A stretch of 55,864 nt of DNA, counting the filler, from Dugesia japonica (Eukaryota): assembly GCA_001938525.1 (NCBI GenBank). It is 4 parts of 4 records of this genome, joined end to end, with 100 filler letters (N's around TTAATTAATTAA, not from the genome) between each part and the next. Parts side by side here need not be neighbours in the genome. Positions count along the whole stretch, not along the records: positions 32,558 to 45,559 come from MQRL01510923.1; positions 45,660 to 55,864 come from MQRL01615569.1; 2 more parts are not named here. One strand, given 5' to 3'. Position 1 is the stretch's first letter. Each line of letters begins with the position of its first letter. Positions 21,064 to 55,864 of the stretch are shown here, piece by piece. The translations under genes and the position numbers were made by a program. The notes under the pieces were generated by a model that saw only the letters and a list, made by a program, of their open reading frames with translations, was not told where the DNA came from and did no database searches.

Positions 21064-24000
21064 NNNNNNNNNNNNNNNNNNNNNNNNNNNNNNNNNNNNN
21101 NNNNNNNNNNNNNNNNNNNNNNATAATAATAATGATAATAATAATAATGATAATAATAATAATGATAATAATAATAATGATAATAATAATAATTAATGTA
21201 TGAATGAAGTAATAAATTATTTAAAAATAGACGAAAATAATTTTATTTCATCAAACGAGTTAAAAAAATTACCGTACTTGTTCAAATATTCGAGTACAGG
21301 TTTATAACTTGTATTTTAAAAATATATTAAATTTTTTTTGAAAAATTTGCACTAATTGTCTTAATTTTAGTGTAAATATAAGAAATCAAATTTTCCTGAA
21401 GAAGCCACATGTCTAAAATTTGAATTTATTGAAAACTTCAATTTTTAGAACGAAGGAATTCACTGAAATTCAATTTACAGTAGTTTTCAACTGTGGCTTA
21501 ATTGTACTCATTTTTATCTTTATCGAAAATTTTTTCAATACAAATTAGCTTCTTTTCATTCTCTCAGCAAAGATTTCCAGGTCTTAAACTCCAAATTTTT
21601 TCATCCTCCGATCCGTCACAGTCAAGGAAGGATTTGAAAATTAATTTCATTATTATCGAGTGCAGGTGCTTCCATGTTCTCCTTTCTAATACCTTTAAAT
21701 TCATCAAGAGCCATAAATTCATAAAATTGATGAAAAATAGTTGTTCCAATAAAAAAACGCAGGCTGAATATATTTCACACATCCTGTTTGAATAATCGAC
21801 ACTTGACATCCCTTTATCAAGTTTAACAGCAAAATACGACAGCGATATGCATCGTTAAAAAATCTACTTGAATTTCTAATTAGCCCGTTAATTTTTCAAT
21901 TTCCAAAAGCTACTTATACATACTGCTTGATCAATTCTTCCAGAATCACTGCTATATATATATATATATATAAACGATTCCAGTGTATTTATTTTCCCGA
22001 GCTTTAATAGGAGTTACAAGGAACAAAAGAAGATAAACTTGGTATTTTTTGCCATCTGTCGATGATATTAGCATAACTATATAACGCAATTTCTCATTGC
22101 GAGTACTCTTATCTGTCTTGGCGCCTATATGTTACAGTGTTGTATAATCAACGTGATCGATCCACGGTGGTGTTTCATCATTCCCAAAGTTTGAGCTTAA
22201 TGGTAATTCCTGTCTGCTTTGCGATTGCCTTGAATATATAATAAAATTTACGATCTTCTAGACATAATCTTCTAGGATATTTTGTCCACAAGTAGTGACT
22301 ATTAAAAGAATTAGGCTATTTCTTAAGAGTTTACTCAGCCATCCATCAGAAGCAATGTTTCTGTTGCAAGTGCACTAGCAATATAAATTTCAGTTGTAAA
22401 ATCGTTTTTGTTACGCGATCTTTTGACTTTCCCAACTGATTTGTATATTTTACAATACCGTGCTCAACTTCGACTAAGACGGATTCGCACTTTCCTTAGT
22501 TTTTCGCTTCTCGGAGATTTGTTTCCGATTTTCTCCATTCATTAATCAATTTTTTATTGCATAAAAACAGGAGTTTCTGTATTGCCAACATAATTTACAA
22601 ATTTAAATGATCGTAGCTTGATTTGGAAAGTATAGTTGCCTTCTTTGTTGTACCGCAGGTAATTTATTCGATAGATCATTTCACATTAGTAATTCTTGGT
22701 TTTTATAATATTTATAGACAATATCAATTGATAAGTAGACATGTTATTCATTAAAATGTTGCCTGCTGCCTATTTATTTTTTATAAAAAAATGTTATAAA
22801 TGTACATGTTTTTGAAAATATAAATATGTAGTAAATATATAAAAAATTTTAAAAATACTATATAATTGTGAAGTCATTTTTATGACAAGCTCCTTTATTC
22901 AAATTATGCTTTTAATTAATATTTTATTCAGAAATTTCGTGAAAATGAGCTACTATTTATAGATAATGTGGTCTTTATTTGACTGCACATTTTATTCGAA
23001 CAAATACGGTATTCATTTCAGAAGTAATATTCGATTATAGGTACTTAAAAAGTATTGTGTAGTGAAAGAAAAACCTAGTTTTAAATAAAATTAGAAATAT
23101 ATGGTCGGTTCAATTTATACTATTAGTCTAATTTTTTTGAATCTAGCAATCGAAAGTGTAACTACTAATTAAAACCTTTATTAATTAAGCATAGGTTAAT
23201 GTTAACTGTTGATATTATTCTAAATATAGACAATTTATTTTCATAAAANNNNNNNNNNNNNNNNNNNNNNNNNNNNNNNNNNNNNNNNNNNNNNNNNNNN
23301 NNNNNNNNNNNNNNNNNNNNNNNNNNNNNNNNNNNNNNNNNNNNNNNNNNNNNNNNNNNNNNNATTTTACATACGTGATTTAACGAATGAGATATGCAAA
23401 AGATCTTTATTATTCAGAAGTTTAATTTGGTAACAAAAAATTATGTAAAATTTGCTTTGATTCATAAAATATTATTGAAAAGTTAAAATTTTAGAGATAA
23501 AGTAAAATTTTATAAATTATAAAATGCAAAATATTTGGCTCATTAAATTTGTTTGTAAAAACAGATTTAAATGTTTTTTCTTTTATTTTTAATGAGTTTT
23601 CAATGGATCCAAATACTATTCTAAATTCAACGGTAAGTTTCGTAAACTCACTTAACAACAAATGTAAATTAAAAATATATTAATAAGTATAAACATAATT
23701 CTGAATTTAGAACATATTTTTATTCTTACGGTAATTTTACCAATCACCAAAAACTACTAAAAAATGAATATGTTTACAAAACNGAAATAGATAAGCAAAT
23801 TACACTAATAAATAAAACTGATATAAAAAAACTATATAAAATATACCATGTTTTTATATAGTATATGTATTTTAATGTCAACGTCATTTTTTATTAATTA
23901 AATTACTAGTTACAATTATTAAAATATTACTGTCCTTATAATTAAGGAAAAACAATATTTTTTCTCCTATTTTATATGATTTATTTGTTAAGATTTTAGG

Positions 24001-30128: not shown

Positions 30129-30188
<60 letters not shown>
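30129..30188. repeat. (AAT)n microsatellite
   Basis: Directly visible. Confidence 0.9.
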
Positions 30189-31320: not shown

Positions 31321-31375
31321 GACTTAATTGAAATAAAACACAATATTTATACATTATACACATATATGAGGTTTA

Positions 31376-32557: not shown

Positions 32558-32624
32558 TATATTTAAAAGTAATAGATATAACAAATATATTATTAGTGGG
32601 AATCAATCCGCTTTAACAGTTGAT

Positions 32625-35550: not shown

Positions 35551-37249
35551 TTTAAAAGAATTAGTAAATATAATTTAAACTTTCTCTTTATATACTAACG
35601 ATTATGTGTGTATATAAAATATTATTGGCTCTATATTGGTCACAAAAATACCTGGAATTAATGAAGAACAACATAGAGGAACAGAAAATTGATAAAGAAG
35701 AAGAAAAATTAAAACTTTCTAAAAATAAATGTTTATTACTGTAAAAGTTTTATAATTTTATAAGTAGTCAAATAAAAATAAGTAAAAATATAATTAATGC
35801 AATAGTGATGCAACTGAGATGCAACTCATCAGCCACCCNNNNNNNNNNNNNNNNNNNNNNNNNNNNNNNNNNNNNNNNNNNNNNNNNNNNNNNNNNNNNN
35901 NNNNNNNNNNNNNNNNNNNNNNNNNNNNNNNNNNNNNNNNNNNNNNAACAAACAAACATTTTAGCTCATTTTTACCTTTTGTAACCTATAGACGTATTTT
36001 GATAGCAAACTCAAATATACCATCTAAGCCCAAATATTATTACCCAGCACACATTATGTCACAATTTTCTATAAAAATATACATTTTTACTCACACAAGC
36101 ATCGCCACATAGAAAAATACTAAACATTTATACCATCACCTGTTCCCCGTATTCTTCTTTCATTCAAACCAAAATCATCCAAATCCGTAAAGAAATTGCA
36201 ACACTAGACCTGTTAAACCAAAATCCCATAACACTTCACAGTAACCAAGAGGAACATTTTGCAAAAATTTATCTATGTCATTAAATACACACTTAAAAAC
36301 CCTATTGAAATAAATCATCGAAACCTAAATAAAGTTTAAAAAAATAAAAATTAGAGGAAAGAAAAAGAAGAAGAAAAGATAAAGTTTTTAAATTTATTGC
36401 TGAAAACTTTTCAGAAAAAAAATTCGTTGGAAATTTCTTTTATGAAATTTGAATTTCCCGCAAAACGTTATCTGAAATTTTTATTTCCCACAAAATTTAT
36501 TTGTTAATGAAAACAAAAAATAAGTTATACGGTTGACAGGACAACATTTTATCAATGTTTTCTATAAAATAAACAAAAGAAATTTTTAATTTCTCGCTAA
36601 ATTAACTTACGACTTAGTTAAAACAATAAATGGTTGAAAATATTTGAAATTCCCGCTAAATTTACTAATTAAATAAAACAAAACATGGGTGTGGGTATGA
36701 GTGTGTATGAGTTAATTAATTTAAATCGTGATAGCACCTCCTTATTATTTCTGATACGAAAAACGGTTTATCATTGAGTTATAAAGATTATCTCCTTAAT
36801 TGTAAAGTTGATGTCGCTGATAATTTGGCAAATATGTCCAATCTCGATCGATTTATTGCAATGGAATATCAAACAATGAAATAATCCTATACCGTTGTAA
36901 GTTTGAAGACACAGTAAAAAATGGACTCCATGCACTTTTTTCAATTCAATTGCTACATAGTCTAGTAATTATCAGAAGATCAGAATGTGTGTAGATACTG
37001 AAATTTAATACAGATTCATTGGAAATGTGAGATTTCTAATGGATAATCTGGTTAAGTTTCATAAACTTGATTTTTCAACAGTTACAAATGAGTTTTATGA
37101 GAATGAAAAGAAACACTAATAAAAGATTTCAATGAAGTTTTACGTTATTCAAGTCCTGGTCCAAACATTTAAAGTTCAAATATATATCAAACTGAAAGTT
37201 CTATCAATTGCTCTAAGATAAAAACATGAATGTAAAGATATACAAATAT

Positions 37250-37440
37250 ATTTCGATTTTGTCTTCGTCAATAATTGACTTTTTTTCGAAATATAATTGA
37301 ATATATATAGAAAATATATAGAATTGTTATCAAAAACCAAAAAACAAAAATTTTGATCGAAGCTTTTATTTTAAATGAATTCTAAAAACGATCAGTGGTT
37401 ACGCCCAACAATTATTCTCGCAAAATTTGCAATTGTAAAA
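37250..37440 (+). mobile_element. Family B pLTR-derived short repeat with an inverted, degenerate hammerhead
   Basis: TTTCGATTTTGTCTTCGTCA (reverse-complement hammerhead), then GAATTGTTATC..TTTTGATCGAAGC..CGATCAGTGGTTACGCCCAACAATTATTCTCGCAAAATTTG. Confidence 0.6.
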
Positions 37441-38254
37441 CCTAAAATTTCATCAATATTATAGACATTGTTATTTTCTTCCGCTGAATTGATAAAAGTT
37501 GCTTCCTTTAGTTCTATATGTTAATTGATTCTTATAAACAGATCATTTGAAATCATTTTTAAAACGCGCATACTATAAGCAAATCTCTTGNNNNNNNNNN
37601 NNNAAGTTATCCTAAATAAAATTTATTAATAAAGATTAATAAAATTAGCAAAATTAGTAGAATTTTGAAAGGAAACAATATTGGTTTCTAGATGAAAACC
37701 CTTTCATACTTGAGAAAATTGCATATCTTGCCAAAATTAAACATTGAAGAAGTATTCTTTTTTTCTTATCGACTCATCTTTAAATTGAACTCTTTCTTCT
37801 TCTAAGAAGTTTTAATGTTGTTTGATGGAAAAACTGACTTCTTTTCCACATAAGTTACCTAAATTTTTCTTCCGCGTAATTTTTGGGCATCTGAATCCAG
37901 TCATTTTTGCTAATTTAATTCGAATTAGTTTTTATATCTATTAATAATTGATTCTTTTAATATTGTTTAAAAAAATATATTTCTTCCTTAAATTGTTTAC
38001 TAATTAGTTAATCATCCATTTCTTTTCTAAAATTTTCGTTCTGAATTCTTTTTTTCAGGATTTATTTTCTGTCTAATTAAAATCTCTAACAATTAAATTT
38101 ATTTTCTCATTTATTTTCGATCTAATTTTNNNNNNNNNNNNNNNNNNNNNNNNNNNNNNNNNNNNNNNNNNNNNNNNNNNNNNNNNNNNNNNNNNNNNNN
38201 NNNNNNNNNNNNNNNNNNNNNNNNNNNNNNNNNNNNNNNNNNNNNNNNNNNNNN

Positions 38255-38296
<42 letters not shown>

Positions 38297-38984
38297 TTTA
38301 TTTATTTTTATGGTTAAAAAATAAAATTGATTTTTCAATTTAATATTAATAAAAAAAATTGTAAATTTTTATGGTATTATCGAAACTCTTATTTTTACTG
38401 CATGTTTTTGGTTTGTATGTACATAAAATAAAGGATAATTCTATAGGTCAGCGTATAGAAAGAAATTATGACGGATATTTTTTGAAAATTATCTCTGCTT
38501 TGATTGCTGTTTTCAATTTTAAATTAACATAAATTATTTCTTAAATTATTTCTATTAATTTAGTTTATTATAAAAAATCAAGACAATTAAGTTTTTGAAA
38601 TTTAAATTTCTTTTTACTTATACGAGAACTTATTAAATAAAATAATTAATAATAAAATTCATAATTGATTTCATTTATATAAATAAAATTCAGAGAAAAT
38701 TATCACATAAACAAGGTTGATGTACAGAGAAAATTTGATAATACGTATTTGTATAATTATAAACAAAAAATTTGGGAATTAATTTTATCACTTAAATAAA
38801 ACAATGTACACCCGAAGTTTTATTAATTATAATCAGAAATATATAATATAATAGGTATTTTGTGAATTAAATTTTAATTATTATTAAATTATTCTTATNG
38901 ATTTTAAATAAATTCAACACAGAATATCTGATTATATCTGTAAATAGTTTTGTTAAAATCGGTTCACAGTTGTAAGAGTGATTC

Positions 38985-40200
38985 ATAGATTTCATTAAAA
39001 TAAAGAAAAAGCTTCGATCAAAATAAAATGTATTTTTGTATAAATTCATATTTTCGACACTTGTCTTCTTGAGGAATGATGACATTTTGATAGATTCAAA
39101 ACGATAATAGATCTTTGTTACAAAATTCTTTAGATTTTATCACATTTTTATTGGTCTTAAAAATTATCATTTTTTTATTTTAAAATTAAATCTCAAAAAA
39201 TCTTTTTTTAACCAAATTGAATTGAAAATCTTTCAAATGTTTAAAAAGACTAATATATTAAAGTATTAAAATATTTAAAATATGTATTTTATTAAAATTA
39301 ATAAATTACAATATTAAAATATTAAAACATTACAATATTAAAATACTAAAATAAAATTATTTCTCTATCAACTTTTGATAAACATTCACAAGCTTCTCCC
39401 AATTCTTATTTAAAAAAATCTTTTATCAATATTTTTTTATTAAAAATTTCTTTTAAAATTTAATTTATTGATACTAATTTTTTAAAATTTTTAATTATTT
39501 TAATTATTGAAAATTACGTTAATTTCAGGTTTATCCTCTTTAATTAATATTTCATGTTTTTTTTCTGTGAAGTGCAGAAATTTAGCCTGTTCAAAATGTT
39601 TTCCATGTAATATGATGTTTTTTTGGTAAAATATTATGTTTCTATTGAAAGAGTTTGAAGACTTCGCTTTCTTTCTGTTTGAGATGTTCTTTAATTCTTG
39701 TACCGATGGTTCTGGATGTTTCTCCTATATGTGTATCTTTACATAAGGTGCATGTTATTTTGTAATATTTTTTAATGCATATATTTCTACCATCACAAAT
39801 GCATTTGGGACCGCAAAATTAATAAAAGGTAATTTAATTACTGTATTTGTCTTTTGTTTGATTTTATTAAATTCTGTATTTGAGTATANATGTTTATATA
39901 CAATTCTATTTGGATAAGCATTATTTAGAAATTTATTTTTTATAACTTAAGGGAAGTCAATCTTATCTCTTCATTTGAAGATAGTCATTCGGCTCTTATT
40001 CTTTCACCCTTGATTATTCTAATTTTCTGTCTGATGATAGTATTACTACTCCAGGGTAATAAATGTCCACTGTGGAATGGTTTCATATATAATTGAGTAT
40101 TTAATAATTCACCAGGTTTCTTTTGGATTAAAATGTCCAGAAAAGAAATAAAACTACTATATTTTAGATTGGACCTCATTAAACTAATTATCACCGAAAC
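38985..40200 (-). mobile_element. Penelope-like element relic 3 (RT C-terminus, GIY-YIG endonuclease, family B pLTR)
   Basis: ORF 39985-40194 SFLDILI..TQLYMKPFHSGHLLPWSS..KIRIIKGERIRA; NNAYP; YKITCTLCKDTHIGETSRTIGTRIKEH; same-strand hammerhead downstream. Confidence 0.9.
39044..39077 (-). ncRNA. Hammerhead motif (family B), G5 mutated
   Basis: AUUC CUCAAGA A GAC AAGU GUC GAAA AUAU GAAU. Confidence 0.55.
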
Positions 40201-40549
40201 CAGCCAANNNNNNNNNNNNNNNNNNNNNNNNNNNNNNNNNNNNNNNNNNNNNNNNNNNNNNNNNNNNNNNNNNNNNNNNNNNNNNNNNNNNNNNNNNNNN
40301 NNNNNNNNNNNNNNNTATCAACAAAATTCTCATAAAAAACTATCTTAATTGACCGAAATTAACCAGATTCGAACTCAGAACAAATTTTATCCTAATTCAA
40401 CCAAATTCGACCTATCCGAGAAAACATTCGACCGAATAGACCAAAAGCGATGAAAAAATTTTGCTCAATGTATAAAAATCGTAACTCATTTACGTAATTA
40501 TTACCGAAATTTCACAAAACAGTTTTTCCCAACTAAATACACAGGAAAA

Positions 40550-40735
40550 TTATAACTTACTTGCGTAATAATATCGCCGACGAAGTTAATCTATTACATA
40601 ATATGTGTGCAAAATTGTCGCTGCTTAAATATTTGAAAAATTCTGAGCTACGTAAGTAGTTCACTTACATGATAATGTTTTATGTCGGTGGGGAGAGGTG
40701 AGCCAGCACGTTGCTATCTACCTACTACCAATCAA
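40550..40735 (+). mobile_element. Helitron-like 3' end, homologous to 950-1080
   Basis: Shared CTTACTTGCGTAATAATATCGCCGACGAA, TCACTTACATGATAAT, GTCGGTGGGG and CTACCTACTACCAAT blocks. Confidence 0.4.
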
Positions 40736-41604
40736 TGAAAATCTTACAATAACAATAAACCAATGGAAAATATGAGGACGCATAAAATTATCGCTATAAA
40801 ACCGCAGCGATTTTTAATCAAAATAATCCTTAATTTTGGTTATAAATTATATTAAATCTTTGTTCATCTTGTAGCATTATTCACTGAAAACTTGTCAGTG
40901 ACAGATATGAACTTAGATTTTGTAAACTAAATTGTGCGTTATTCAATATTTATTTGAATACAATATTTTAAAGTTTTAATTTTGTTATATCATTTTATAT
41001 CGGAGTAGGGTTTAATTCTGTTTTATGTTATAATGAGTATGGGCAACCCCAAATAATTCGGTAAAATTAAGACAAGCTATAAATTAAATGAATAAACAGT
41101 TTAACAAACACTGAAACGAAACACTGCATTTAAAATTCTGTGAATAACTAACTGTACACGATACTGTCATAATACAGATTTTGTAATAAAATTTTGTCCG
41201 CGAAGTGATGTTGAAATAATAGGTTTTAATCATAAATAATTTTTCTTTTTCTCGGCTAAATCTGTAGGAAGAATGACTGAGGAGAACATTTTATCGTACT
41301 TTATAAACATTCAAATATAAATTATGAGATATAACTAAGAATTGTATAGTATTTCTTTATTGACCTCTGAAAGAGTAACTTGACATATGTATTTGATATA
41401 GGCGAATACTTGAATTAAACATTTTACTTCACTATAAAGTCATTTCTTTTACCTACAGATGTTTGCCAGGGTATATATTTCTCTAATTCGGCCCACAATT
41501 TCTTCTACAGAAAATAATTAAAATTAATATTTAGATATCGTTTGATTTATTTTGCAAAANTATTTTTTTCTCAATTTTATTTAAGTATGAAATTAAATTC
41601 TATA

Positions 41605-41657
41605 AAACGATCAATGGTTAAGTCCAACAATTATTCTCGCAATAATTGCAATTGTAA
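41605..41657 (+). repeat. Family B 3' terminal piece
   Basis: CGATCAATGGTTAAGTCCAACAATTATTCTCGCAATAATTGCAATTGTAA. Confidence 0.75.
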
Positions 41658-42062
41658 AATGAAATTAAATATCAAATATTCTTATATTCATTCCAGTTTT
41701 ACTTATTCTGTTCTGTTTTGTATGTACAACTAGGATTAAAATAAAATTCATTAAAATTTTAAATCTAAGGGTCTATTCCTATCCACATTTATTATTATTT
41801 TTAAGCTTTTAGATAAGTATAAAGATAAATTTATACGTACGCATGTTGTGCCAGGTCTAACGCATCGTATGGTAATATAAAAGTGGAAAATTGTGAACTA
41901 TGTCCCACAACCTAATTTCCAGAAAGTTTTGACAACCCAGCTTTATTTATAAGTAATTAATCTCTTAGTTTCTCAAAACTGTTTAGTAAAATCAATTGAT
42001 GATTATAAAACTTGTTTTTTCGTAATAACTGAGGAATAACTTTACAATTTATTTCTTCTATA

Positions 42063-42286
42063 ATTACAATTATTGCGAGAATAATTGTTGGACTTAACCG
42101 TTGATCGGATTTGAGATTTCATTAAAAGGAAGAAAAAACTTCGATTAAAATAAAATGTATTTTTTTAGAAATTCATATTTTCGACACCTGTCTTCTTCAG
42201 GAATAAAAAGACAAGTGTCGAAAATTTGAATTTCTACGAAAATACATTTTATTTTGATCGAAGCTTTATCTTTATTTTAATGAAAT
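42063..42286 (-). mobile_element. Family B pLTR-derived short element with fold-back
   Basis: Complete 3' piece plus hammerhead on the minus strand; 42116-42194 is mirrored by 42208-42286. Confidence 0.75.
42171..42204 (-). ncRNA. Minimal type-I hammerhead motif (family B)
   Basis: AUUC CUGAAGA A GAC AGGU GUC GAAA AUAU GAAU: intact CUGANGA and GAAA, helix I AUUC/GAAU, helix II GAC/GUC; the triplet before helix I is not NUH in this copy. Confidence 0.7.
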
Positions 42287-42752
42287 TTATTTATTAACTT
42301 ATGGATTAATTTCATTAATTAATTTTTTAAAATAATTAATTAACTAAATTTTCCACGAATTTGTCGTGCTTTAAAAATTTCTCTAAATCGTATTTTTCAA
42401 AAAAATATTTTCAATTTTAATTTTATTGAATTCACAACTATTCGGTTTGTCTTATAACGATTTTAGAAGCTTTTTAATCATCTGTTTTCATTCAGACGTT
42501 TTTACATATTCTTTTTTCTAGTAATTTTCCATTTGTCTTTTTTAAATTTTTTATCTAGCCCTTATAATCTTTGCACATTTCTTAGGATAAATAAATCAAT
42601 TTAATTTGAAAATCTGACCATGCACACCATAAACAAAACAAATGTATAAAATTATAAAATTATAATTTAGTAGAATTTTTAATTATATTCTTCTTTTATT
42701 TTTTTCATTATTTCATTTATAAATTTTATAAATTTTGTTTATTCCACTATAG

Positions 42753-43077
42753 GATTTCAAAGGATTTAAATGGAACGAAAAATTTAAATATGGAAACCAT
42801 CAAATCAATTGACGACATTTATATTTATGCCGATAAAATTGATGAAGATTACAAAGGATTTACTACTGATATTGATCCAGTTTATCGTAGTTTGCCATTA
42901 GCATTACTATCGAATAAACTATCGGAAGAACAATTAATTCGATGCATTAGAACTGAATGCCAAATTACTCATAAATCTGAAATTGCACAGTCAGCTTGCA
43001 TTTCTATCGTTTTACTTTTATCATTATTAATAAAAGGTCAAGATTTTGAAAAAAGCGCTAGAGAAGTAGCAAGAAAA
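42753..43077 (+). CDS. Internal exon of an ADP-ribosylglycohydrolase (ARH/DraG family)-like gene
   Basis: TATAG acceptor and GTAAAT donor, open frame; YRSLPLALL..EEQLIRCIRTECQITHKSEIAQSACISIVLLLSLLIKG resembles the MRxxP..A.xTH helical repeat of the family; other exons not securely found. Confidence 0.55.
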
Positions 43078-45309
43078 GTAAATTAGACTTTTAATTTATT
43101 AATATGATAATTTTTTTATTTTAAAAATATATTTAAATTTTGGAATTATATGATTAATAGATATAAAATTAAAATTACGAAAGTTTTCATCCGAGACAAA
43201 AAGTTATTTTTAATGAATTATATTTATTTTTATTACGCGATTGTCGTACGAGTAATCAATTTATTATTAAAGTTTTGTTCCGATTTTAGTTCATTTTAAA
43301 TATTTGTTTATATAAATTCGACATATTCATTATTTTTAGTGATACTATTTTTAACAGTTGTCTTGAGTTTTTGAACTTATATAACTAAAATTTTAATTCA
43401 TGTTAGAGATTATTTGTATGGTTTATTCATTTGCAATTTTAATATTTGAATTTAAATTTTTAAAAATTTTTTCATTGTTTATTTTTTGGGTGCGTTTTAA
43501 TTTCATAAATATAATTAATTGTATGTTGGGACAGAACCCAACTAATAAAAATCAAATAATAAATATTCAGAATCCGGAACTAATATAAAATAAAAATAAA
43601 AAACTGAAATTAAAAGATGATAAAATAACTATATTTTCCCAAGAAACGTGAGAAATTCAAGAAAAACATAGCACAGTCCGAAGTATTTATCCAAATATTA
43701 CCCAAAAATCAATAATTATGCAGGGAAAATATACAAATTTAGCAATTACAAATAATTAAATAACAAATAATAAGGATTTTGTCAATTAATCTATCACTCA
43801 TGAACCTTTTTTCGTGTTACAAGGGTTTATAAGGAGCTAACAAATGAAGAAAAAATGACTTTAACAACTATTATTGGCCTGAAAAAAAGAAAACATTGGT
43901 AAAATATTACAGCAACGATTTCTCTCAAATAATTGCAAACTATCTTTTATTCACTATAAGGAAATAATTAAAGATCTACCTAACATTAACCATCACAGTT
44001 ATGCATGCAAGAAATAATTGTCAGAGAATTATTTCAGAAATAATTGATCAACAATTATCGGTCTAAATTACTCTTTAGTCCCAGAAGATATTCATCAATT
44101 TAGAACATATTACTTACCAACAATTATTGGTTAAATTCTAATTACTTTCGAGTTCTAGAAGAAATTTGTCATTTCGAAGTATCTAATCTATCAACTAGTA
44201 TCAGTTTTAGTTTTAATAGTTCTCGAGTTCAAGAAGAAACTCTTTGCATCAGAACAAAATCGACCAGCAATTAACAATCAAAACTTGCCATTCTGAACTT
44301 TAATTACTCTCAACTACGAACACAAAACAATTACATTCAGACAATTTACTCCGCGAAGTTCAGAGATAATCGATCCACAGCCATAATATATAAACGCTAA
44401 CATTTACTAGCAAATTATTGAATTTCGCTAATAAAGTTAAAAAATCAGACACAGCAAATCAATTACTCAAAGTTTTTATCAATCCAAGTGGTCAAGTCCA
44501 TCCTAAAATTTATTTTCCCATCCTTTGTGAATTCTGTCAATTATGAGAAGCCGTGTTCAATCCATAAGTGTATGCGTTTATCAATTTATATTATTATTTT
44601 TAATATATAATAAAAATATCGACACAGTATTAGTTAAATTCAAAACCTCACAACTCTCCAAAAGTTTTTATTTATTATTTCAAGTATTTTATTAAAGTGA
44701 AAAAAAGATGAAGATTAATTCAAAGTATTCAAACAAATAATCTGAAAAATTTTAATCAAATATTTTAAAAAACATCGATTTTAGTTTTATGAAATATTTT
44801 ATTTTACATAAATCTTTAATTGCTTTCCAACATAATTTCACAAAATAATCTTTTTACTTTTATAATTTCGCCTAATATAATTATAGAAATTATTTAAATA
44901 ATTTGTATTTTAAAAAGTTTGTATATTAAAAACTTGTTTTACTTTTTTAATTTTAATATATGAATGTTTCAAAANATAAATTTTAATATAATAAATATAA
45001 AATTAAGAAAATCTCTCAGATATTCAAAATCTATGTATCAATCTTACATACAGAATTATATTCATTTTGATTATTATTGAGAATTATCATGACTATTCAT
45101 TCGGTTATTACCAATACTATTGTTAGGTAAATCTTTAATTGTTAATTCATTTTGCAAATTAGAATTCATTTTGTTAGACATTTTTTATTTTACTACTACA
45201 AACTATACTTAATAAGAGAAATAATTATTGAATAGTATTTTAAAAATCTTTATCCAGAATTAACTGAATTCATATTGGCTCAAAATTATTTAATAATAAT
45301 TATTTCCTC

Positions 45310-45559
45310 AAATCCCCATTCTTAAGAAACTTTCTTAGTTTTCCACATTTCTTTCTAATCGCTGTCCATTTTCTCCTTGTACCACATACCGCCTTTCATG
45401 AATTTTCTCAATTATTTGATAGGGTCCTTCAAATCTGTCTTGGCTTTTATTTCTTGTTCCTACCTTGATGAGTACCATATCGCCGACTTTGAATTCTCTT
45501 TTAGTAATCACGTCTGAAGTGTTTTCTTTAGCTCTTTCTGAAACGTCTGACTTATACCA
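45310..45559 (-). mobile_element. Gypsy integrase C-terminus, polypurine tract and LTR start
   Basis: KREFKVGDMVLIK..RFEGPYQIIEKIHERRYVV; AAGAATGGGGA-TT-TG. Confidence 0.8.
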
Positions 45560-45659
45560 NNNNNNNNNNNNNNNNNNNNNNNNNNNNNNNNNNNNNNNNN
45601 NNNTTAATTAATTAANNNNNNNNNNNNNNNNNNNNNNNNNNNNNNNNNNNNNNNNNNNN
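45560..45659. other. Artificial assembly spacer (44N-TTAATTAATTAA-44N)
   Basis: Linker at 45604-45615. Confidence 0.95.
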
Positions 45660-46798
45660 ACAGTGGAGATCGAGAGTGATAATGAAGATCAATATAAATG
45701 CAAACAACATCAAAAAGCCTAGCAATCCAACAAATGTTTCAAAAACATTACGATGCTTAGATATACAAATGCGTCAGAATTGATGGTTTTTGCGAATACA
45801 ATTATAATGCACAATTTTTTTAACAAATCTGAATGTTAGGTTTGTGACTTAATTAAACTTGGATTCTTAATGAAATTTGACTTTTTCTAGATTCTTAGAT
45901 TTGATTGATTGTGGATGAATCGAAGTAAATGTTTGAAACATTTGCAGTTGTCGTTTTGGTTGTTTTAATGAAACTTCATTAATTATTATTCGATTACATT
46001 TTAGTTATTTTGGTATATTAATTAATCGATTATTCTTACGATCGACTTAACTTTTTGATCGATTAATAAAGTTTTTATTAATAATCTCTTTTTTAATGAA
46101 AATTAGATTTTTAAGTGTACATATATTTGTTTAGATGAATTCGGGATTTTAGCGAACCCAAATNAACAGTTGCATGAGTTTAATTAAATATCAAATAATC
46201 GAATTAATTGTATATAACACTTATATCTTTTCTATAATACCTTAAATATTATTATTATACATAATAGATATTATTATAATTAAACTATATAGTCGACCTT
46301 ATATCAATTAAAAAGAATTTTACTTTTAAAAATTATAATTGTAATACAATATTTCTTTACAAATGCGTTAAGATTTTTACCACTGAGGGTTGATCTAAGT
46401 AGAATTTGACTCTATTCGTGATTTGAAAAAAATTGTAGTAAACTAAAATCTGTCTACGTATTTATACCAACAGGTCACTCGGTCATTACATGCAAATTAA
46501 AAATAAATCAAATATTTATAAAACTTTTACATGTAGATTAAAAATAAGGGCGGATATTTACAAAAGATTTATAAATTATATAATAATTTATTAGAATATT
46601 ACCTTTTATTAATAAAATCCGACAAAANNNNNNNNNNNNNNNNNNNNNNNNNNNNNNNNNNNNNNNNNNNNNNNNNNNNNNNNNNNNNNNNNNNNNNNNN
46701 NNNNNNNNNNNNNNNNNNNNNNNNNNNNNNNNNNNNNNNNNNNNNNNNNNNNNNNNNNNTTGATCAAAATTTAGGTTTTAATTATTGATATTGGATAA

Positions 46799-46835
46799 CA
46801 ATTCGATATTTCGACCTTGTCTTCGTCAGAATTTT
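46799..46835 (-). ncRNA. Minimal type-I hammerhead motif (family B variant)
   Basis: AAUU CUGACGA A GAC AAG GUC GAAA UAUC GAAUUG; AUC triplet, predicted cut between 46805 and 46804. Confidence 0.7.
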
Positions 46836-46854
46836 ACTTTTTTTTAAAAAAAGT

Positions 46855-46891
46855 CAATTCCTGACGAAGACAAGGTCGAAATAAAGAATTG
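46855..46891 (+). ncRNA. Minimal type-I hammerhead motif (family B variant)
   Basis: CAAUUC CUGACGA A GAC AAG GUC GAAA UAAA GAAUUG; perfect 6-bp helix I; cleavage triplet mutated. Confidence 0.7.
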
Positions 46892-48124
46892 TTATCCAAT
46901 ATCAATAATTAAAACCTAAATTTTGATCAAAGCTTTATATTAAATAATATTCGTAATTTCATTATTCGATCAATAATTATTAATAAAGTCCGATAAAGGT
47001 GATTTGTAAACAGGATTTACAATTTATTATTAAAATTAAAACTGTCTTTACATTAAAAATAGAATATTAATTACATAATTACTAAAGGTAAAATAATAAA
47101 ATTGTTACATAAAATTGTCACAAGGACTGCAATCGAAACTGCTAAAATTAAAAATAAAATTGATTATTCAGCAATATACAATTGTCACAATTAAGATATA
47201 ATTAAAGTTACTCATGAATGCAGAAACTGATCATAGAAATTGAATTTGAATTGAGGGACCCGAATTGAGGTTTGGCTGACTGAGGAGTACATTTGAATGT
47301 TTGTATTGTGGTTTTTTGTGCATGTTTGTGTATTGTGTATTTGTGTGTTTCCCAACATATTTGTTAATGGCTTTCAGAAATACCTTAATGAATCTATTTA
47401 CTTTGCAATATTTGTTAGTGTTAGGCTTGTCAACTCTCCCGGAACTGGATTTCATCTCCTGTCTCGGCGTTATCACTGACTCGGTAGATATAATCCTCTC
47501 GTAATTCCGTTTTTACAAGATTTTTTGTGTATATCTTTTTGGTATTAGTCATCATATCGTTAAAATCACACACATCACCATCATGTGTAAGTTGTAATAG
47601 TGTCAACAAAAAAATGAAAACTACTTTTTATATTTGTTAAGCGTTATAAATTATAATGGTTGCAATATTATGACCTTCTGGATTCGAGGTTGTAGGTATT
47701 GGTAACCCTAGTTAATGTTTTTCCATTCATTATTAACATTTTTTTTATTTTTCTTGTAATAATTTTCCAAATTCGAAACGATTTATTCAGAAGAACCAGT
47801 TCTAATAAAGTATATATCAGGAAAACTTTATTTTTTTAATTTGCCTGGAAATTTGATAAAATATAATTGTTTTCAAAAATAACCTTTATTTATTTATGTT
47901 AACTTCTATTTGGAGTAATAATGTTTGCATTTGCTATTTGTTTAACTTGTGCTTCATTCTTTTTTATTTAAAATTTAAATTAAAATTAAAGTTTTTAAAT
48001 GAATTAATATTTTAAATAATTTATTTTCAAGTATACTATATATTACGCGCAGAATAATTTTTTAAAACTATTTACAATCATATTAAATAATGACATACAG
48101 TTTATAATAATTATCTAACTTTAG

Positions 48125-48708
48125 ATGATTAGATCATTACTTAACCATAGTCAAAATGTATTTAAATTTGGTTTTTCGAAGAGATTTTGTACCATACTTC
48201 CTGCTGCTAACAGTAATGATGGTTCAAAAGTATATCCTCCTCATATAGAAGATATTGTAAACAAAATATCTAGTTTAACTTTACTAGAAGTAGCCGATTT
48301 AAATTCATTATTAAAATTACGGTTAAATATTCAAGTAATCTAGTAATGTTCTGGAAAATAACTGAGTTTTAGGGTACTCACATGATGATGGGAATGGCAC
48401 CTGCGCAACAAACAGCACCGGAACCAGAACCAGAAGTAGTTCAAAAAACTTGGTTTAATGTCAAACTAGTTAGTTTTGATGCAACTAAGAAAGTACCTTT
48501 AATAAAAGAAATTAAATCAATTTTTCCTGAATTGAATTTGGTTCAAGCCAAAAAATTTGTCGAAGTATTCAGTTTAAAGAGATAATAATTCGNATTTTAT
48601 TTATTTTAGAGTGCTCCTACAATTATTAAAAAAGAAGTATCTAAAGAAGAAGCTGAAAATATTAAATCATTGTGTGAAAATGTTGGTGGTGTTATAGATA
48701 TAGAATAA
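48125..48708 (+). CDS. MRPL12: Mitochondrial ribosomal protein L12 (bL12m), 166 aa; exons 48125-48334, 48373-48564, 48610-48708
   Basis: Basic N-terminal presequence; YPPHIEDIVNKISSLTLLEVADLNSLLK; FNVKLVSFDATKKVPLIKEIK..LNLVQAKKFVE|SAPTIIKKEVSKEEAE; two phase-0 GT-AG introns (38 and 45 nt); TAA overlaps AATAAA. Confidence 0.97.
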
Positions 48709-48959
48709 ATTAATAAATCGTCTTTTTTAAATGATTCAATTCAATCTGGTTTTTTCCTGTTTAATTTAATGTTACTCAATTATAATAAACAAATCAAAGT
48801 TTTGCACATTTTTAAACCTACTTTGACTCAATTTTATTGATTGCCATCTGATCATTCGAAAGATTTCACGAATTACTCATTTTCTTTAACATTATTTCTA
48901 TGGCAATCCTACTAAACATTTTGAAAATAGGATTTTTAAATTTCAAATAAGAATTTAAG

Positions 48960-49480
48960 TTAATCTTTCTCTCACCGAACATAGCCGACCCGAACGTGTT
49001 AATTCATGTCGTGTTTCTAATTTGCTCCCTTTTTTAACATGACTGTTTTACATTCGCTAATGACTACTTATGAGAAAAAATGTGAAAGAAGTTATGTTAC
49101 GCTTTTAATGTAGTAAAATCGAAGTTTTGTTCACAGCGAGGAAGAAATCTCAAAACGTATTGATTAGTAAAAGGGTTAAGGGGATATCCATTAATCATTT
49201 CGAAATCGGAGTAGAGTTTTCGAGAAGTTTGACCAGAAGAGGAAGATGTCCGAGATAATTTGGGGTCAACAAATTAGTTAAAATATTGCTAATTTGTTGG
49301 AGGGGTAAATATTTGCTGGAATATTTTTATTAGGTGGGTCACTAAAAATTGTTCAGTTGTTGAAAAGGGTTAATAAGTATCTGAAAATTGTTGACATAAT
49401 TAATGGACAGTCTCCAATAATTGAATAAGTTATTTTTTTCGTTTAAATAATTCTTGAATTAAACAAAACATCGTACCAAT
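48960..49480 (-). mobile_element. Possible Gypsy integrase C-terminal relic
   Basis: Minus-strand TRSGR..VRERL motif preceded by a highly degenerate GPY-like region. Confidence 0.3.
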
Positions 49481-50440
49481 AAAGAGCACNNNNNNNNTTA
49501 ATCGATATTTTAGATATGTTAGAAGATTTGGAATTGTCTATAAAATCAGGATATGAGGAAATCAATAAATCAATTGGAATAAACGAAAATCCGGTGAAAC
49601 TAGTTCATATATTCAAACTTGAATTAATAAAATAACACCGAAACCATCATCTTGCTACAGAATGATTCAATATCCCCACGGGATTAAAGTTTTCTACTGA
49701 ATTGTCTACCTAACTCAATTACGGTCGAAAAAAGTTTTCTATGTTAAAAAAAGACAGCAAATGACAGAAATTTTATCAAGTATTTTAATGTTACACCGAA
49801 TAAAAAGAACAGTTAAAATAATAATGAGGATTTGTGTAATTGTATAATCGACTAATTGGTGTCCAAATAATAACTAAAATTAAATTTTGTCTTGAACTTT
49901 TTCAACTTTTATACAAAAATAATTGCAATTTTTGGATTGCCCTGATTATTACTTAACGAAAATTATTTAAACCATTTGTTCATTTTTGTTTTAGTAGTAA
50001 AACGTACCGCGTTTTCCGAAAATAAGTCATTAAAAACAGTTTGAATAAATTAACTCTTAAATAGATGAAATTTTTCTTTTATTCTTAAAAAATCAATGGA
50101 GGATTTGTGGGCGTCACCTAGTTTTACCAAAAGATCATATATATGCAATTTATTGGTGGAATACTGAAAATATACATTGCATTTCTTATAAGGTTTAGTT
50201 TAGTTAACTCTCATTAGAAGTGTTGATATAATTTTTTAAAACCGAGTGGCGTTATGCTACTCAATGCTTTTAAGAGTTAAAATTATAAAGTTAAAGTTTA
50301 AAAAATCCAAATCTTAAAAGAAATTTTCAATTGATTATAAAATTAAATCAATTTTCAATACAGGAGACACAGCTTACAATGATCACTTCGGGGAAAATAG
50401 TATTGATTATATTAAGCGGCTTATTATTAATACTCTGCAT

Positions 50441-51369
50441 CAGTAGCGTAGGAAGGATGAGGCGATAGGGCGGTCTGCCACGGGCAGCTCTTTTGCTTCT
50501 ATTAATCAAAGAAGCGATATGAATTACTCAGATCAATTTTATTCTGATACTGGTTTCGTAATTATTTAAAAAATATTCTTCTCTAGTGTTTTTTAAACAA
50601 TAAAAAATACACCAAATTAAATAAATTTTCCCGAAGTTCTGTGAATGTTGTTTCAGCAATAACTGTGAAGAAGTGACTCATAAGTCATAGTTAAAAAAAC
50701 TATGTTGGTGTATCAGGCATTGATTTCGGAAACTGTTTGTTTACATTATCACTGTAATTACATTATTTTTTATTGTGTTGTTCCCAATTTTAATTATATT
50801 CTCAATGCAAGAAAATATTGTAAGTACGTACTATTTTATATTTTAGTGTATTATGTATAACCAATAGTTTTACTTTAAAAATTCAATTTTTGTAAATGCA
50901 GAAAAATTCTAGTTATTTGTATTATGTGAAATTTGTCTATTAAAAGAAATTTTAAAAAAACGTATCATATTATTAATGTTAGATGAACCGAACAAAAATA
51001 TATTAATCATATTAAATAAATAAACACGATCGAAAATAAATTGTTACTTTTTAAAAGTATAATTGTTAAACTTTTATTTATTATTTAATGAGTAAATCAG
51101 AAAAAATATTAGGGAGTTTAGCATATCCTAAAAAAGTTATTGAGATTGTATTATCTCTTCACCAAAGTAAAGGTTATATTGTTATATTTTTGGTTTTAAC
51201 CAATTTCTATATAAAAAGCAAAAAACCCTTTGGTATTTTTTGGTTGATTAAAAAGGAAAAAAAATTACATATTTTTCATTTTTCGTACTTAAAAATATAA
51301 TATATTTGATTGAGAAGGGCGGAAATTTTAGGGACCACCCGGGCGGCGTATACCATATCTACGCCACCA
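50441..51369. mobile_element. hAT-type non-autonomous element, ~930 bp
   Basis: Ends CAGTAGCGTAG / CTACGCCACCA with GC-rich GGGCGG subterminal motifs; 8-bp flanks CTCTGCAT / CCCAGTAT match at 5 of 8. Confidence 0.55.
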
Positions 51370-52119
51370 CCCAGTATTTAATACAATTATACGTTTGTAT
51401 CCCAAAGTCGGAAAAAATTATCATATTAATTGAATACTCGAAAGAAACATGAATTAATTTTATTTTTTTTGCGATTCTAAAAGGCAGAATAATTTTATTG
51501 ATGGCGAGGATAAAGTTTTCCTTCGATAAATATATCTTATTTTTTCGTTTTTATATTTTAATCATATTAAATTGTGGTCATTTATAAATTGCATCTGTAA
51601 AACAATTTTTTCCAAATAACTTGTAAACAAAGAATGAGAAGTATCAACTTCTTATTTATGCCTTTTTCGAATTGTATCCAGGTACCTTCAATTGCTTGGG
51701 TATGAGCAAATAAATCAGGATCAACAAAACGACTTAATTAAATAACCTCTTTCGTACTTAAACTCTTTCTTTGAAACCATGTAACAAGTTGAAATTCTTT
51801 CTTATAATTCTTTTGAAAATCTTTGAATTTCCTGTACACTTTATTTGGATTTTCATTTCACCGCTACATATAAAAATACGTTTTTTAAAAATCAATTAAA
51901 ATTTTTTAATCCAGAAAATGCATAAACACTTCTATCTGAAATAAGATTTTTAGAATAATTCATTAGACATTATCTTAAATTATTTTAAGTTATTTATCTT
52001 AAATTAAGTATTTTAACCAACGGGGACCTAAAGTGTAAATATACCAACTTCAGCTATAATAAGTCCAGCAGAAATTAGAATTTATTTTTAAATTTATATC
52101 AATAAATAAAATTTTATAA

Positions 52120-52255
52120 TTACAATTATTGTGAGAATAATTGTTGGACTTAACCATTGATCGGATTTGAGATTTCATTAAAATAAGATAAGGCTTCGAT
52201 CAAAGCCTTTTCGATCAAAGGTTTTGATCGAAGCCTTATCTTATTTTAATGAAAA
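52120..52255 (-). repeat. Family B 3' piece with fold-back (no hammerhead)
   Basis: TTACAATTATTGTGAGAATAATTGTTGGACTTAACCATTGATCGG..GCTTCGATCAAA, then inverted TTTGATCGAAGCCTTATCTTATTTTAATGAAA. Confidence 0.8.
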
Positions 52256-53376
52256 TAAAATCTATTTTTCATTAATTTCTGATTGTTCATTACACCTACT
52301 AGCGCCAATAAAAGAAAAACTTAATTTTCGTACAATAACATTATTATAAGAATATACTTTCATTCTGGCAGAATTCTTAATAATAAACATCCAATTCATT
52401 CACTGACTCACTGACTCACTCTGGAACGCTTCAGTTAAATAAAATATTTTAAGCTTATAAATCCTAATTTATATGTTTTTAAAGTTTCCAGTAATTTTAT
52501 CTTATGAGTAAAAATTGCTTCGAATGATGTGTACCATGATAAAAAGTCATTTTGTGTGTGTGCATTGGTCACTTTTCAAATTGCCAAAAATAAAAAAGTT
52601 CTTAAAAATTTTTCAACTAAATGTTGCTCTGAAAAACTCCTCCCCCCGGGGGATGATCTGGTTCACTCAAATCTATCTACTCTCATATTTGTTATTTAAT
52701 TTTAAATTTCAATGCCGTTGATAAACTTCGTTGCACACTATAACATGATTTTTAAATTTTTACAGACAATGGCACTTTAGCATTAACAGTTTGCCAATAA
52801 TGCTTTTTTTAAATTAAAACTTTTTAAAGGAAATTATAATGAATCTCTTACATAAAATAAGACTATTATAAATTAGTATATTTTAGTTTGTATAAAAATT
52901 GAAACTATCAAAATCAGTTTATCTAAAAAAAGGTATACATAACCTATTTACAAATATCTACTAATAAGATGGTTATTTTATAAATTAATTTATAGTTTGA
53001 GTCTATGATAATTCTGATAATAGTAAACACTAGGCAAAAGAGATATTTTGTAGCTAAATTTGTTTGATATTTTCATGATAAATAAAAAAATATGTTTCGT
53101 GCATTTAATTATAATTTGCTGCAGAAAATATTTGACAATGAAATTTAATTAATCATTACAATACTTATAAATCCAAAATCACGAGTTGTATTAAGCATAA
53201 TTATTATTAAAGATACGTTTAATGTGGGTCCTAATACACATGTAAATTCTGAAAAACAATTTTTGTAATTACATGATTATTTTATAAAATTAATTGACTT
53301 AAAAAATAAATTAAAATGATTAACTTTGTAACAATTGTCGATCAACTATTTCACATTTCAAATGATACTTCTAGAA

Positions 53377-53430
53377 TTACAATAATTGCGTGAATAATTT
53401 TTGGACTTAACCATTGATCGTTTTTGAGAT
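53377..53430 (-). repeat. Family B 3' terminal piece
   Basis: TTACAATAATTGCGTGAATAATTTTTGGACTTAACCATTGATCG. Confidence 0.7.
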
Positions 53431-53761
53431 AATACAAGGTAAAACAAGTGATTATTAAGAATACTATTTTGGTCACTGGATATTTACACATTAATAAAAA
53501 ATCTTCTTTTTGCTTTTTTTTAATTACTCAAAGAATATTATCGGGTGTTGACAGTCTGTGTCCAAGTGACAGCGTCAAATATCCGTCTGTTGACAGATCA
53601 GGACAGTGCCAGAACGGCAATGCGAGGTTAAGATTTTTGTTTCTTATAACAATATTAGTGATCTTATCGTAGCACTGCAACACGTAATCACGCTTATGCA
53701 CAAATGTTAAGAAAACAAAATACTTTTGCAGAACTCAAATGGGTCACTTAAAATCGTCAAA

Positions 53762-53786
53762 CGGGCCATAGGTTGTCAACACCTGG
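53762..53786. mobile_element. Possible hAT-Charlie-type right end
   Basis: CGGGCCATAGGTTGTCAACACCTG. Confidence 0.35.
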
Positions 53787-55799: not shown

Positions 55800-55801
55800 T
55801 T

Positions 55802-55864
<63 letters not shown>
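55800..55864. repeat. (TTC)n followed by (TTA)n microsatellite
   Basis: Directly visible. Confidence 0.95.

What the first reader, a model, noticed from the sequence alone, without database searches (positions are those of the whole stretch)
37250..53430. Dense family of short ribozyme-bearing repeats tied to a Penelope-like element (family B)
Seen: the unit [hammerhead]-TTTTGATCGAAGC-TTTAATGAAAT-CGATCAATGGTTAAGTCCAACAATTATTCTCGCAATAATTG occurs whole or in part at 37250, 38985, 41605, 42063, 46760, 52120 and 53377, plus a relic at 21391, on three separate contigs. Only the 38985 copy is attached to RT/GIY-YIG coding sequence, on the same strand. Four copies (37250, 42063, 46760, 52120) carry an inverted duplicate on their 5' side. 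Two subfamilies differ in helix I length and loop II but keep the core. Established: pLTR hammerheads in Penelope-like elements, and hammerhead-bearing non-autonomous retrozymes in animals. Inference: a high-copy, SINE/retrozyme-like family mobilised by the Penelope enzyme, with template fold-back during insertion; whether it has been described for this organism cannot be determined here.
Basis: partly seen in the sequence, partly recalled or inferred. Interest (0 to 1): 0.75.

Follow-up and report, generated by a model that had tools for sequence, protein, structure and literature searches.

The report
Stump insertions of a Penelope retrotransposon
These short repeats consist of the end module and first codons of a Penelope-type jumping gene, most with a damaged or missing hammerhead ribozyme motif, and they are likely stubs left by that element's own copying rather than a separate ribozyme parasite, so the finding is mostly ordinary.

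Summary
The repeats are real: 8 loci (12 arms) on 3 of 4 concatenated contigs. The 'SINE/retrozyme-like family' reading is not supported.

The unit's conserved downstream half encodes residues 2-18 of P0004, an 843-aa Penelope-like RT/GIY-YIG protein retrieved with the RT remnant alone (5 of 5 tailed copies match; 0 of 50 shuffles). So the unit is the pseudo-LTR end plus the Penelope 'tail'.

Copies end at two fixed sites about 60 nt apart. Three of 6 tested loci have 9-12-bp target-site duplications. Inverted arms, where their end is visible, lack the tail. This anatomy is published (Arkhipova 2013, Craig 2021, Frangieh 2024).

No tandem arrays occur. Three loci have no hammerhead, only 3 arms keep the exact core, and none passes a full descriptor.

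Small, post-hoc patterns: 5' ends cluster 5-16 nt upstream of the hammerhead, and two copies are tail only. Both fit priming at two sites near the RNA 5' end.

No genome-wide or read-level data were obtained, so copy number and cleavage are untested. New member of a known kind.

The parts
39509..40206 (-). Decayed 3' part of the PLE ORF (RT thumb, Cys linker, GIY-YIG endonuclease), with stops and frameshifts; the 5' part is lost in an N gap
   Evidence: tblastn of P0004 residues 585-841, 67-77% identity, E 5e-69; weak Pfam GIY-YIG hit, below cut-off
38987..39090 (-). ORF-linked pLTR, subfamily 1: hammerhead with core change G5C (C3 at 39073); ends at site A, no tail
42056..42205 (-). Long arm, subfamily 1: hammerhead with exact core (C3 at 42200) but non-canonical position 16.1; in-frame ATG; 60-nt tail ending at site B
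42206..42286 (+). Inverted short arm: starts inside the hammerhead core, ends at site A, no tail. The pair is flanked by a 9-bp TSD (42046-42054 / 42284-42292)
41599..41658 (+). Tail-only insertion from site A to site B, no hammerhead, 12-bp TSD (41587-41598 / 41659-41670); encodes RSMVKSNNYSRNNCNCK
46760..46845 (-). Subfamily-2 arm with the most complete minimal hammerhead (C3 at 46829, GAAA-UA-UC), helix I partly broken; runs into an N gap
46846..46945 (+). Mirror arm, subfamily 2: exact core (C3 at 46861), 6-bp helix I, U16.1 lost; ends at about site A, no tail
52112..52210 (-). Long arm with tail and no hammerhead; central junction holds repeated copies of a near-palindromic motif
52217..52254 (+). 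Inverted short arm ending at site A. The pair is flanked by a 9-bp TSD (52104-52112 / 52253-52261)
53369..53430 (-). Second tail-only copy, from site A to site B; no TSD detected
37237..37287 (-). Decayed inverted arm, subfamily 2, with a degenerate hammerhead (position 3 at 37271)
37288..37440 (+). Decayed tailed arm, subfamily 2; hammerhead part replaced by TA-rich sequence; ends at site B
21393..21455 (+). Relic of a subfamily-1 hammerhead region
   Evidence: 79% over 52 nt, E 3e-7

Best explanation
The repeats are the end module (pseudo-LTR end with a minimal hammerhead motif, plus the first ~20 codons of the gene) of a Penelope-like retrotransposon, and they are likely short dead-end insertions made by that element's own reverse transcriptase/endonuclease. 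Shown: the unit's downstream half is the ORF start; arms end at two fixed sites, A (at the ATG) and B (about 60 nt further); three loci have 9-12-bp TSDs in AT-rich DNA; and in both complete palindromes the tailed arm ends at B and the inverted arm at A. Inferred, by analogy with the anole PAc element: the enzyme cuts AT-rich DNA and primes internally on its own mRNA at B and/or A. Priming near the mRNA 5' end runs off after at most about 150 nt, just upstream of the hammerhead, giving stubs. Priming from both target ends and joining of the two cDNAs gives the palindromes. Loss or abortion of the A-primed part leaves tail-only copies. Hammerhead cleavage is probably not needed for these insertions.
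For: P0004 was found with the RT remnant only. Its residues 2-18 match all 5 tailed arms, best E 9e-13. Controls gave 0 hits at E<1e-4: 0 of 50 shuffles, 0 of 18 other slices, 0 of 4 relatives' N-termini. The 5 of 5 tails end at the same alignment column. Four arms end at or within a few nt of site A. TSDs of 12, 9 and 9 bp have AT-matched null fractions of 0, 0.017 and 0.033. Three hammerhead-containing palindrome centres lie 5, 15-16 and 16 nt upstream of C3; crude P 0.009-0.03. The ORF-linked 3' UTR has no second copy in the window. [quoted passage not shown] The inverted truncated copy and tail at one end are in PMC8557442. Two RT start sites bound the tail, both strands are extended, and HHR mutants still insert (PMC11167929). 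Single and opposite-strand minimal HHRs are in PMC4209133.
Against: The sample is 8 loci in one window; boundaries and null models were chosen after viewing the data. No TSD was found at 3 of 6 tested loci. No full-length or tandem master is in the window, and the DNA around P0004 could not be fetched. Fixed 5' ends are also what a short non-autonomous master would give, and two loci on different contigs share a palindrome centre. The tail (about 60 nt) is longer than the published 30-40 bp. Priming sites and RNA 5' end are inferred from an element of another clade. Arms at 52120 are identical with private variants, which fits fold-back equally well.
Confidence: 0.8

Rival explanations
1. A non-autonomous short element (SINE- or MITE-like, possibly palindromic) derived from the pLTR is transcribed on its own and copied in trans by the Penelope enzyme. 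Non-autonomous PLE derivatives are known, such as MRC1 among Chlamys elements.
For: 7 of 8 loci lack downstream ORF sequence. 5' ends cluster. Loci 37250 and 46760 share a palindrome centre. The conserved motif GATCGAAGC fits a recalled loose Pol III B-box consensus. Non-autonomous Chlamys elements are described in PMC8557442.
Against: Palindrome centres differ among subfamily-1 loci (42205 vs 52213). Arm lengths run from 38 to 150 nt. Both subfamilies tie to an ORF. There is no A-box or tRNA, and T-runs precede the B-box-like motif. In PAc the template needs ORF nt up to +172 while priming is at +111-118, so inserted stubs would lack part of the needed RNA (PMC11167929; analogy only).
Confidence: 0.12
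2. A hammerhead retrozyme: self-cleaved monomers circularise and are retrotransposed from circular RNA.
For: A type I hammerhead motif is present. Animal retrozymes are proposed to derive from pLTRs (bioRxiv 10.64898/2026.07.22.740005).
Against: There are no head-to-tail units. The motif is minimal, not canonical, and is damaged or absent in most arms. No arm clearly begins or ends at the cleavage site. Ends fall at the ORF-start sites instead.
Confidence: 0.03
3. Same origin as the best explanation, but the inverted arm arises by fold-back: one cDNA primed at B snaps back on itself and is copied until the strand joins the second target end. This rival concerns only that step.
For: Arms at 52120 are identical over 32 nt with shared private changes, and the junction has repeated palindromic slips. 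Centres lie in self-complementary A/T tracts or motifs.
Against: It does not by itself explain why the short arm stops at site A in 3 of 3 palindromes where that end is clear. At 42063 the arms differ at 9 of 79 sites, more than either differs from the ORF-linked copy (7 and 4). Two sites group the left arm with the ORF-linked copy against the right arm; this is one locus with weak, AT-context sites.
Confidence: 0.35

Closest known systems
EN+ Penelope-like element insertions with pLTR, inverted pLTR and tail (Pen2a_Av of Adineta vaga, PMC3846280; Fig. 2 of PMC8557442)
   Same: pLTR that reaches into the ORF start; optional tail at one end only; shorter inverted pLTR; 8-12-bp TSDs; solo pLTRs; ORF of about 840 aa
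   Different: Tail about 60 nt rather than 30-40; inserts reduced to 60-230 bp; tail-only inserts, one with a TSD; apparently dense (8 loci in 54 kb) whereas A. vaga copies are rare
PAc (Poseidon, Anolis carolinensis) internal RT initiation, PMC11167929
   Same: Two fixed 3' ends bounding the tail; AT-rich targets; a predicted hairpin near the outer end
   Different: Different clade; here the hammerhead lies about 78 nt upstream of the ATG rather than overlapping it; no biochemistry for this family
Minimal PLE hammerheads (Cervera and de la Pena 2014, PMC4209133)
   Same: Type I motif, short helix I, extra nucleotide between A9 and G10.1, G10.1-C11.1 pair, palindromic helix III; mostly single or opposite-strand copies ascribed to truncated PLEs
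   Different: Helix II here is only 3-4 bp (7-8 bp in Schistosoma); most copies are damaged
PNL2_SM and Nematis rows of Fig. S2 in PMC8557442
   Same: By eye: short Cys linker and GIY-YIG with CCHH, like P0004
   Different: No alignment or tree against these references could be run; identity with a Repbase family is untested
Non-LTR retrozymes (PMC7229834; bioRxiv 10.64898/2026.07.22.740005)
   Same: Short, AT-rich, type I hammerhead-bearing, pLTR-related
   Different: Those are head-to-tail 150-450-bp units with canonical hammerheads and circular RNAs; these are inverted or single stubs ending in the ORF start

Membership tests
EN+ Penelope-like element (C-terminal GIY-YIG) | Single ORF with RT followed by a GIY-YIG endonuclease | tested here: met
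   P0004: RVT_1 at cut-off, GIY-YIG just under cut-off; the window remnant matches residues 585-841
EN+ Penelope-like element (C-terminal GIY-YIG) | CCHH motif in the endonuclease | tested here: met
   C760, C763, H793 invariant and H798 nearly invariant in 12 aligned proteins
EN+ Penelope-like element (C-terminal GIY-YIG) | pLTR with a minimal hammerhead downstream of the ORF | tested here: met
   Motif at 39073 (one core change); exact cores in 3 related arms
EN+ Penelope-like element (C-terminal GIY-YIG) | [quoted passage not shown] | tested here: met
   5 tailed arms match P0004 residues 2-18; length about 60 nt
EN+ Penelope-like element (C-terminal GIY-YIG) | Inverted 5'-truncated pLTR and variable-length TSD | tested here: met
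   3 clear and 1 decayed palindrome; TSDs at 3 of 6 tested loci
EN+ Penelope-like element (C-terminal GIY-YIG) | Partial-tandem full-length master (pLTR-ORF-pLTR) | not testable with these tools
   Not in the window; no genome held; the contig of P0004 could not be fetched
Hydra clade of PLEs | DKT motif and CxCX5C linker | tested here: met
   P0004 has DKT and a CX3CxCX5C linker
Hydra clade of PLEs | CCHH motif absent | tested here: not met
   CCHH is present (definition), so it is not filed as Hydra
Nematis clade of PLEs | Short CX2-5CxxC linker plus CCHH | tested here: inconclusive
   P0004 and 6 relatives have CX3CxCX5C; 5 more distant relatives have CX3CxxC; resembles the PNL2_SM row by eye
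Nematis clade of PLEs | RT phylogeny with named references | not testable with these tools
   No named reference PLE proteins were available as usable sequences
Non-LTR retrozyme | Head-to-tail tandem units, each with a complete hammerhead | tested here: not met
   No such array among 23 TRF rows over 36500-55000 or in the whole-window self-BLAST
Non-LTR retrozyme | Canonical type I hammerhead (helix I 6 bp, helix II 4 bp, intact core) | tested here: not met
   Minimal motif; 0 of 12 arms pass the full descriptor; no Rfam hit
Non-LTR retrozyme | Abundant linear and circular monomer RNAs | not testable with these tools
   No read-level data were obtained
SINE | tRNA/7SL/5S-derived head with Pol III A and B boxes | tested here: not met
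   No tRNA and no Rfam hit; no A-box at 7 of 7 loci; a B-box-like 9-mer at 5 of 7 by a recalled loose consensus
SINE | Own master lineages, independent of the autonomous partner | tested here: inconclusive
   Both subfamilies tie to an ORF, but only 8 loci were seen
Hammerhead ribozyme (minimal, PLE type) | Compensatory base changes in helices | tested here: inconclusive
   Shared helix pairs are identical between subfamilies (read); too few sequences
Hammerhead ribozyme (minimal, PLE type) | Self-cleavage after H17, as a dimer | not testable with these tools
   Needs in vitro or RNA-end data

The most novel reading that the evidence does not exclude
The stubs are a genomic record of twin priming by a dimeric Penelope enzyme. 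The two ends of a double-strand cut are primed separately at sites B and A near the 5' end of the RNA, sometimes on two different pLTR copies, and the two run-off cDNAs are joined in the middle. This one rule would explain the inverted pLTR, the one-sided tail, the 5' ends just upstream of the hammerhead, and TSD-flanked tail-only inserts. A dense family of such stubs would make the unexplained tandem/inverted PLE structure testable from sequence alone.
Probability: 0.3. Interest if true: 0.6.

Novelty: new member of a known kind. Interest (0 to 1): 0.3.

Why it matters
For annotation, the repeats should be counted as Penelope insertions, not as a new SINE or retrozyme, and they mostly do not carry an intact ribozyme. 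For mechanism, how PLEs form inverted pLTRs and a one-sided tail is still open (stated in PMC8557442). A family that leaves many tiny TSD-flanked inserts with fixed ends, including tail-only ones, is good material for testing twin priming against fold-back. With 8 loci this is a lead, not a result.

Tried and rejected
- Rfam: no hammerhead at E<=1; 6 miRNA-family hits, all below gathering score and all on the palindromes.
- Whole genome: none held.
- Sequencing runs: 24 listed, no RNA holder listed. No read-level result was obtained, so copy number, expression and RNA ends stay open.
- Metagenome scan with a 20-nt tail motif: 2 loci (L001, L002), both lacking any flanking element sequence; rejected as chance.
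- Viral contigs: 53 pattern matches, 0 confirmed.
- Idea that the 37250 arms break at the hammerhead cleavage site: rejected, because the inverted arm continues about 12 nt past it in decayed form.
- RNA structure around the priming sites: a 7-bp stem enclosing the ATG and a 9-bp hairpin in the tail are predicted in some copies (z -0.2 to -2.0 for the three ~95-100-nt segments, +0.45 for the whole 150-nt arm). Cells are 89% paired but there are 0 compensatory changes (one search used a mis-registered string and is void). Not evidence.
- Monomer folds do not give the hammerhead structure, as expected for a minimal motif; uninformative.
- Hydra-clade membership: rejected (CCHH present).
- Host name: not established. 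GPCR relatives are unnamed (78%) or distant molluscan and trematode proteins.
- Literature: Penelope + twin priming + inverted + GIY-YIG gave 0 papers. A looser search gave 11 listed, none on this mechanism by title or abstract start. Flatworm searches showed no description of this family in their listings.
- Lunse et al. 2017 is not held.
- Look-ups of earlier notes by sequence and by place returned nothing.
Full report
Setting. The window is 23-27% GC animal DNA made of four records joined by 44N-12nt-44N spacers: 1-14268, 14369-32457, 32558-45559 and 45660-55864. No whole genome is held. A GPCR points loosely to spiralians. A second PLE remnant in the window resembles, by eye, the flatworm Perere_Smed row of a published alignment. 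A planarian-like flatworm is therefore a guess.

Observation. Self-comparison finds 8 loci made of 12 arms. That is one locus per 6.7 kb of non-N sequence and about 1.9% of it, spread 0, 1, 4 and 3 over the contigs (chi-square p 0.07, small counts). A tail motif matches 5 places against 0 in 100 shuffles. Three palindromes are clear (42056-42286, 46760-46945, 52112-52254). The 37250 locus is a decayed one, collinear with 46760 and sharing its centre.

The hammerhead. It is a minimal type I motif: CUGANGA, one extra A, helix II of 3-4 bp with G10.1-C11.1, then GAAA and a palindromic helix III. This is the architecture described for PLE hammerheads (PMC4209133, parts 1-2 of 4 read). Subfamily 1 has a 4-bp helix I and 4-nt loop II; subfamily 2 has 6 bp and 3 nt. 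Only 3 of 12 arms keep the exact core with helix II and GAAA. Only 46829 also keeps U16.1-C17, and its helix I is broken after 2 bp. Its mirror arm keeps helix I but has lost U16.1. Three loci have no hammerhead at all. Rfam finds none. Cleavage was not tested.

What the unit is. The 73-aa RT piece of the ORF-linked copy retrieved 1 protein among 17 candidates: P0004, 843 aa, 81% identical. It has RT and C-terminal GIY-YIG domains and 41 relatives. The window remnant covers its residues 585-841. P0004 was chosen without reference to the repeats, yet its residues 2-18 match the conserved downstream half of all 5 tailed arms (15 of 17 identical at 41608). Controls gave no hit at E<1e-4: 50 shuffles, 18 other slices of P0004, and 4 relatives' N-termini. 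An in-frame ATG lies seven codons upstream of the conserved Met/Val position in the two subfamily-1 tailed arms. So the unit is the pLTR end followed by the ORF start, the Penelope tail.

Ends. All 5 tails stop at the same column, site B. Four untailed arms stop at or within a few bases of the ATG, site A, about 60 nt earlier (38987, 42286, 46945, 52254). In both complete palindromes the tailed arm ends at B and the inverted arm at A. Two copies (41599-41658 and 53369-53430) run from A to B and nothing more. TSDs of 12, 9 and 9 bp flank 41599-41658, 42056-42286 and 52112-52254; none was found at the other 3 of 6 loci tested. AT-matched null fractions were 0, 0.017 and 0.033 in about 1000 draws; I set the boundaries after seeing the alignments. 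No solo arm reaches the 3' UTR (low-complexity filter on, and subfamily 2 may have another UTR). The three palindromes that include the hammerhead turn 5, 15-16 and 16 nt upstream of C3. A crude geometric null gives P 0.009, or 0.03 if the ORF-linked copy counts as a miss, and P 0.015 for two tail-only copies among five (post hoc).

Comparison with print. Arkhipova et al. 2013 (PMC3846280, parts 1-3 of 5 read) describe a pLTR holding the first 12 aa, a tail extending it to 22 aa, a shorter inverted pLTR, 8-10-bp TSDs and solo pLTRs. Craig et al. 2021 (PMC8557442; passages, section 11, supplement part 54 and term searches) give the inverted truncated copy and one-sided 30-40-bp tail as general PLE traits and call their origin unresolved. 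Frangieh et al. 2024 (PMC11167929, parts 1-2 of 4 and passages) show two internal RT start sites bounding the tail, extension of both target strands, AT-rich targets, a predicted dimer, and no need for hammerhead cleavage. Schostak et al. 2008 (PMC2377424, passages) place the transcription start inside the pLTR. Retrozymes are tandem units with canonical hammerheads and circular RNAs (PMC7229834, passages; bioRxiv 10.64898/2026.07.22.740005, parts 1-3 of 5); no such array is here. PMC6765202 and PMC8969392 were seen as passages. Not seen, and possibly bearing on whether this family is already listed: the supplements of PMC4209133, most of the Craig supplement, the bioRxiv supplements, Lunse 2017 (not held) and Repbase.

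Mechanism. Shown: anatomy, two fixed 3' ends, TSDs, and identity of the tail with the ORF start. Inferred from PAc: internal target-primed reverse transcription at A and B. Inferred here: priming on the 5'-proximal pLTR-ORF junction runs off at an RNA start just upstream of the hammerhead, which explains short copies with clustered 5' ends without a separate non-autonomous RNA. For the inverted arm I favour a second priming at A from the other target end over fold-back, because that arm has a fixed end. The arm sequences are mixed evidence. At 52120 they are identical over 32 nt with private variants, which implies one template. At 46760 they differ at 5 of 85 sites. At 42063 they differ at 9 of 79, and two sites side with different lineages. 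Tail-only inserts could come from an aborted second priming or from later deletion of the palindrome; these data cannot separate the two.

Against this reading. There are only 8 loci, no master copy, and no copy-number or RNA data. The shared centre at 37250 and 46760 and the excess of solos also fit a short non-autonomous master (0.12). The conserved TTTTGATCGAAGC island is unexplained. It can pair with the tail start across the ATG (no covariation), and it fits a recalled loose B-box.

Clade. CCHH is present, so it is not Hydra despite DKT and a CxCX5C-type linker. The best resemblance, by eye, is to the PNL2_SM and Nematis rows; no tree with named references was possible.

Earlier notes of this scan report similar stubs and palindromes in other genomes. 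They are unchecked AI notes and are not used as support, but they suggest the pattern is not rare.

Verdict. A real repeat family, best filed as stump insertions of an EN+ Penelope-like element: new member of a known kind, interest 0.3. The twin-priming reading (probability 0.3, interest 0.6 if true) is the part worth a genome-wide test.

Noticed in passing
window 9021-9942 (and 8375-8553): A second, unrelated PLE family in textbook form: inverted pLTR 9021-9109 (-), truncated GIY-YIG 9154-9455 (+), pLTR 9854-9942 (+) with a degenerate hammerhead at 9867. The endonuclease resembles the Perere_Smed row by eye.
   Followed up: partly
window 31363-31575: A 213-nt AT-rich imperfect palindrome (88%) with no match to this family or to the PLE proteins tested; possibly another inverted-terminal stub or a MITE.
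   Followed up: no
window 52195-52237: The palindrome centre holds three copies of a 15-nt unit built on the near-palindromic conserved motif, suggesting repeated template switching at the junction.
   Followed up: partly
window 37436-37456: Right after the tail lies a 21-nt piece 90% like the subfamily-2 pLTR interior; possibly a second fragment in tandem, possibly chance.
   Followed up: no
window 37351, 39011, 42252, 46922, 52222: The TTTTGATCGAAGC island is conserved across both subfamilies although the flanking spacers differ. It is complementary to the tail start across the ATG and fits a loose B-box; function unexplained.
   Followed up: partly
window 18593-19625: A DDE_3 transposase remnant (18891-19292) between 79%-alike inverted repeats, likely a Tc1/mariner-type element.
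   Followed up: no
window 3552-3971: Mariner-type transposase remnant (PF01359).
   Followed up: no
window 5425-6747 (-): Intronless 7TM GPCR of about 440 aa; closest relative unnamed at 78%.
   Followed up: partly
window 42700-43083: ADP-ribosylglycohydrolase exon (PF03747) about 400 bp from the 42063 insertion.
   Followed up: no
window 32752-33528: A 258-aa frame with N gaps and no convincing Pfam match; by recall it looks like the region upstream of Maverick/Polinton-type polymerases. Untested.
   Followed up: no
window 35-783 and 11494-12059: Degenerate repeats of about 240-300 nt at the window start, and a 258-nt duplication across an N gap that is probably an assembly artefact.
   Followed up: no
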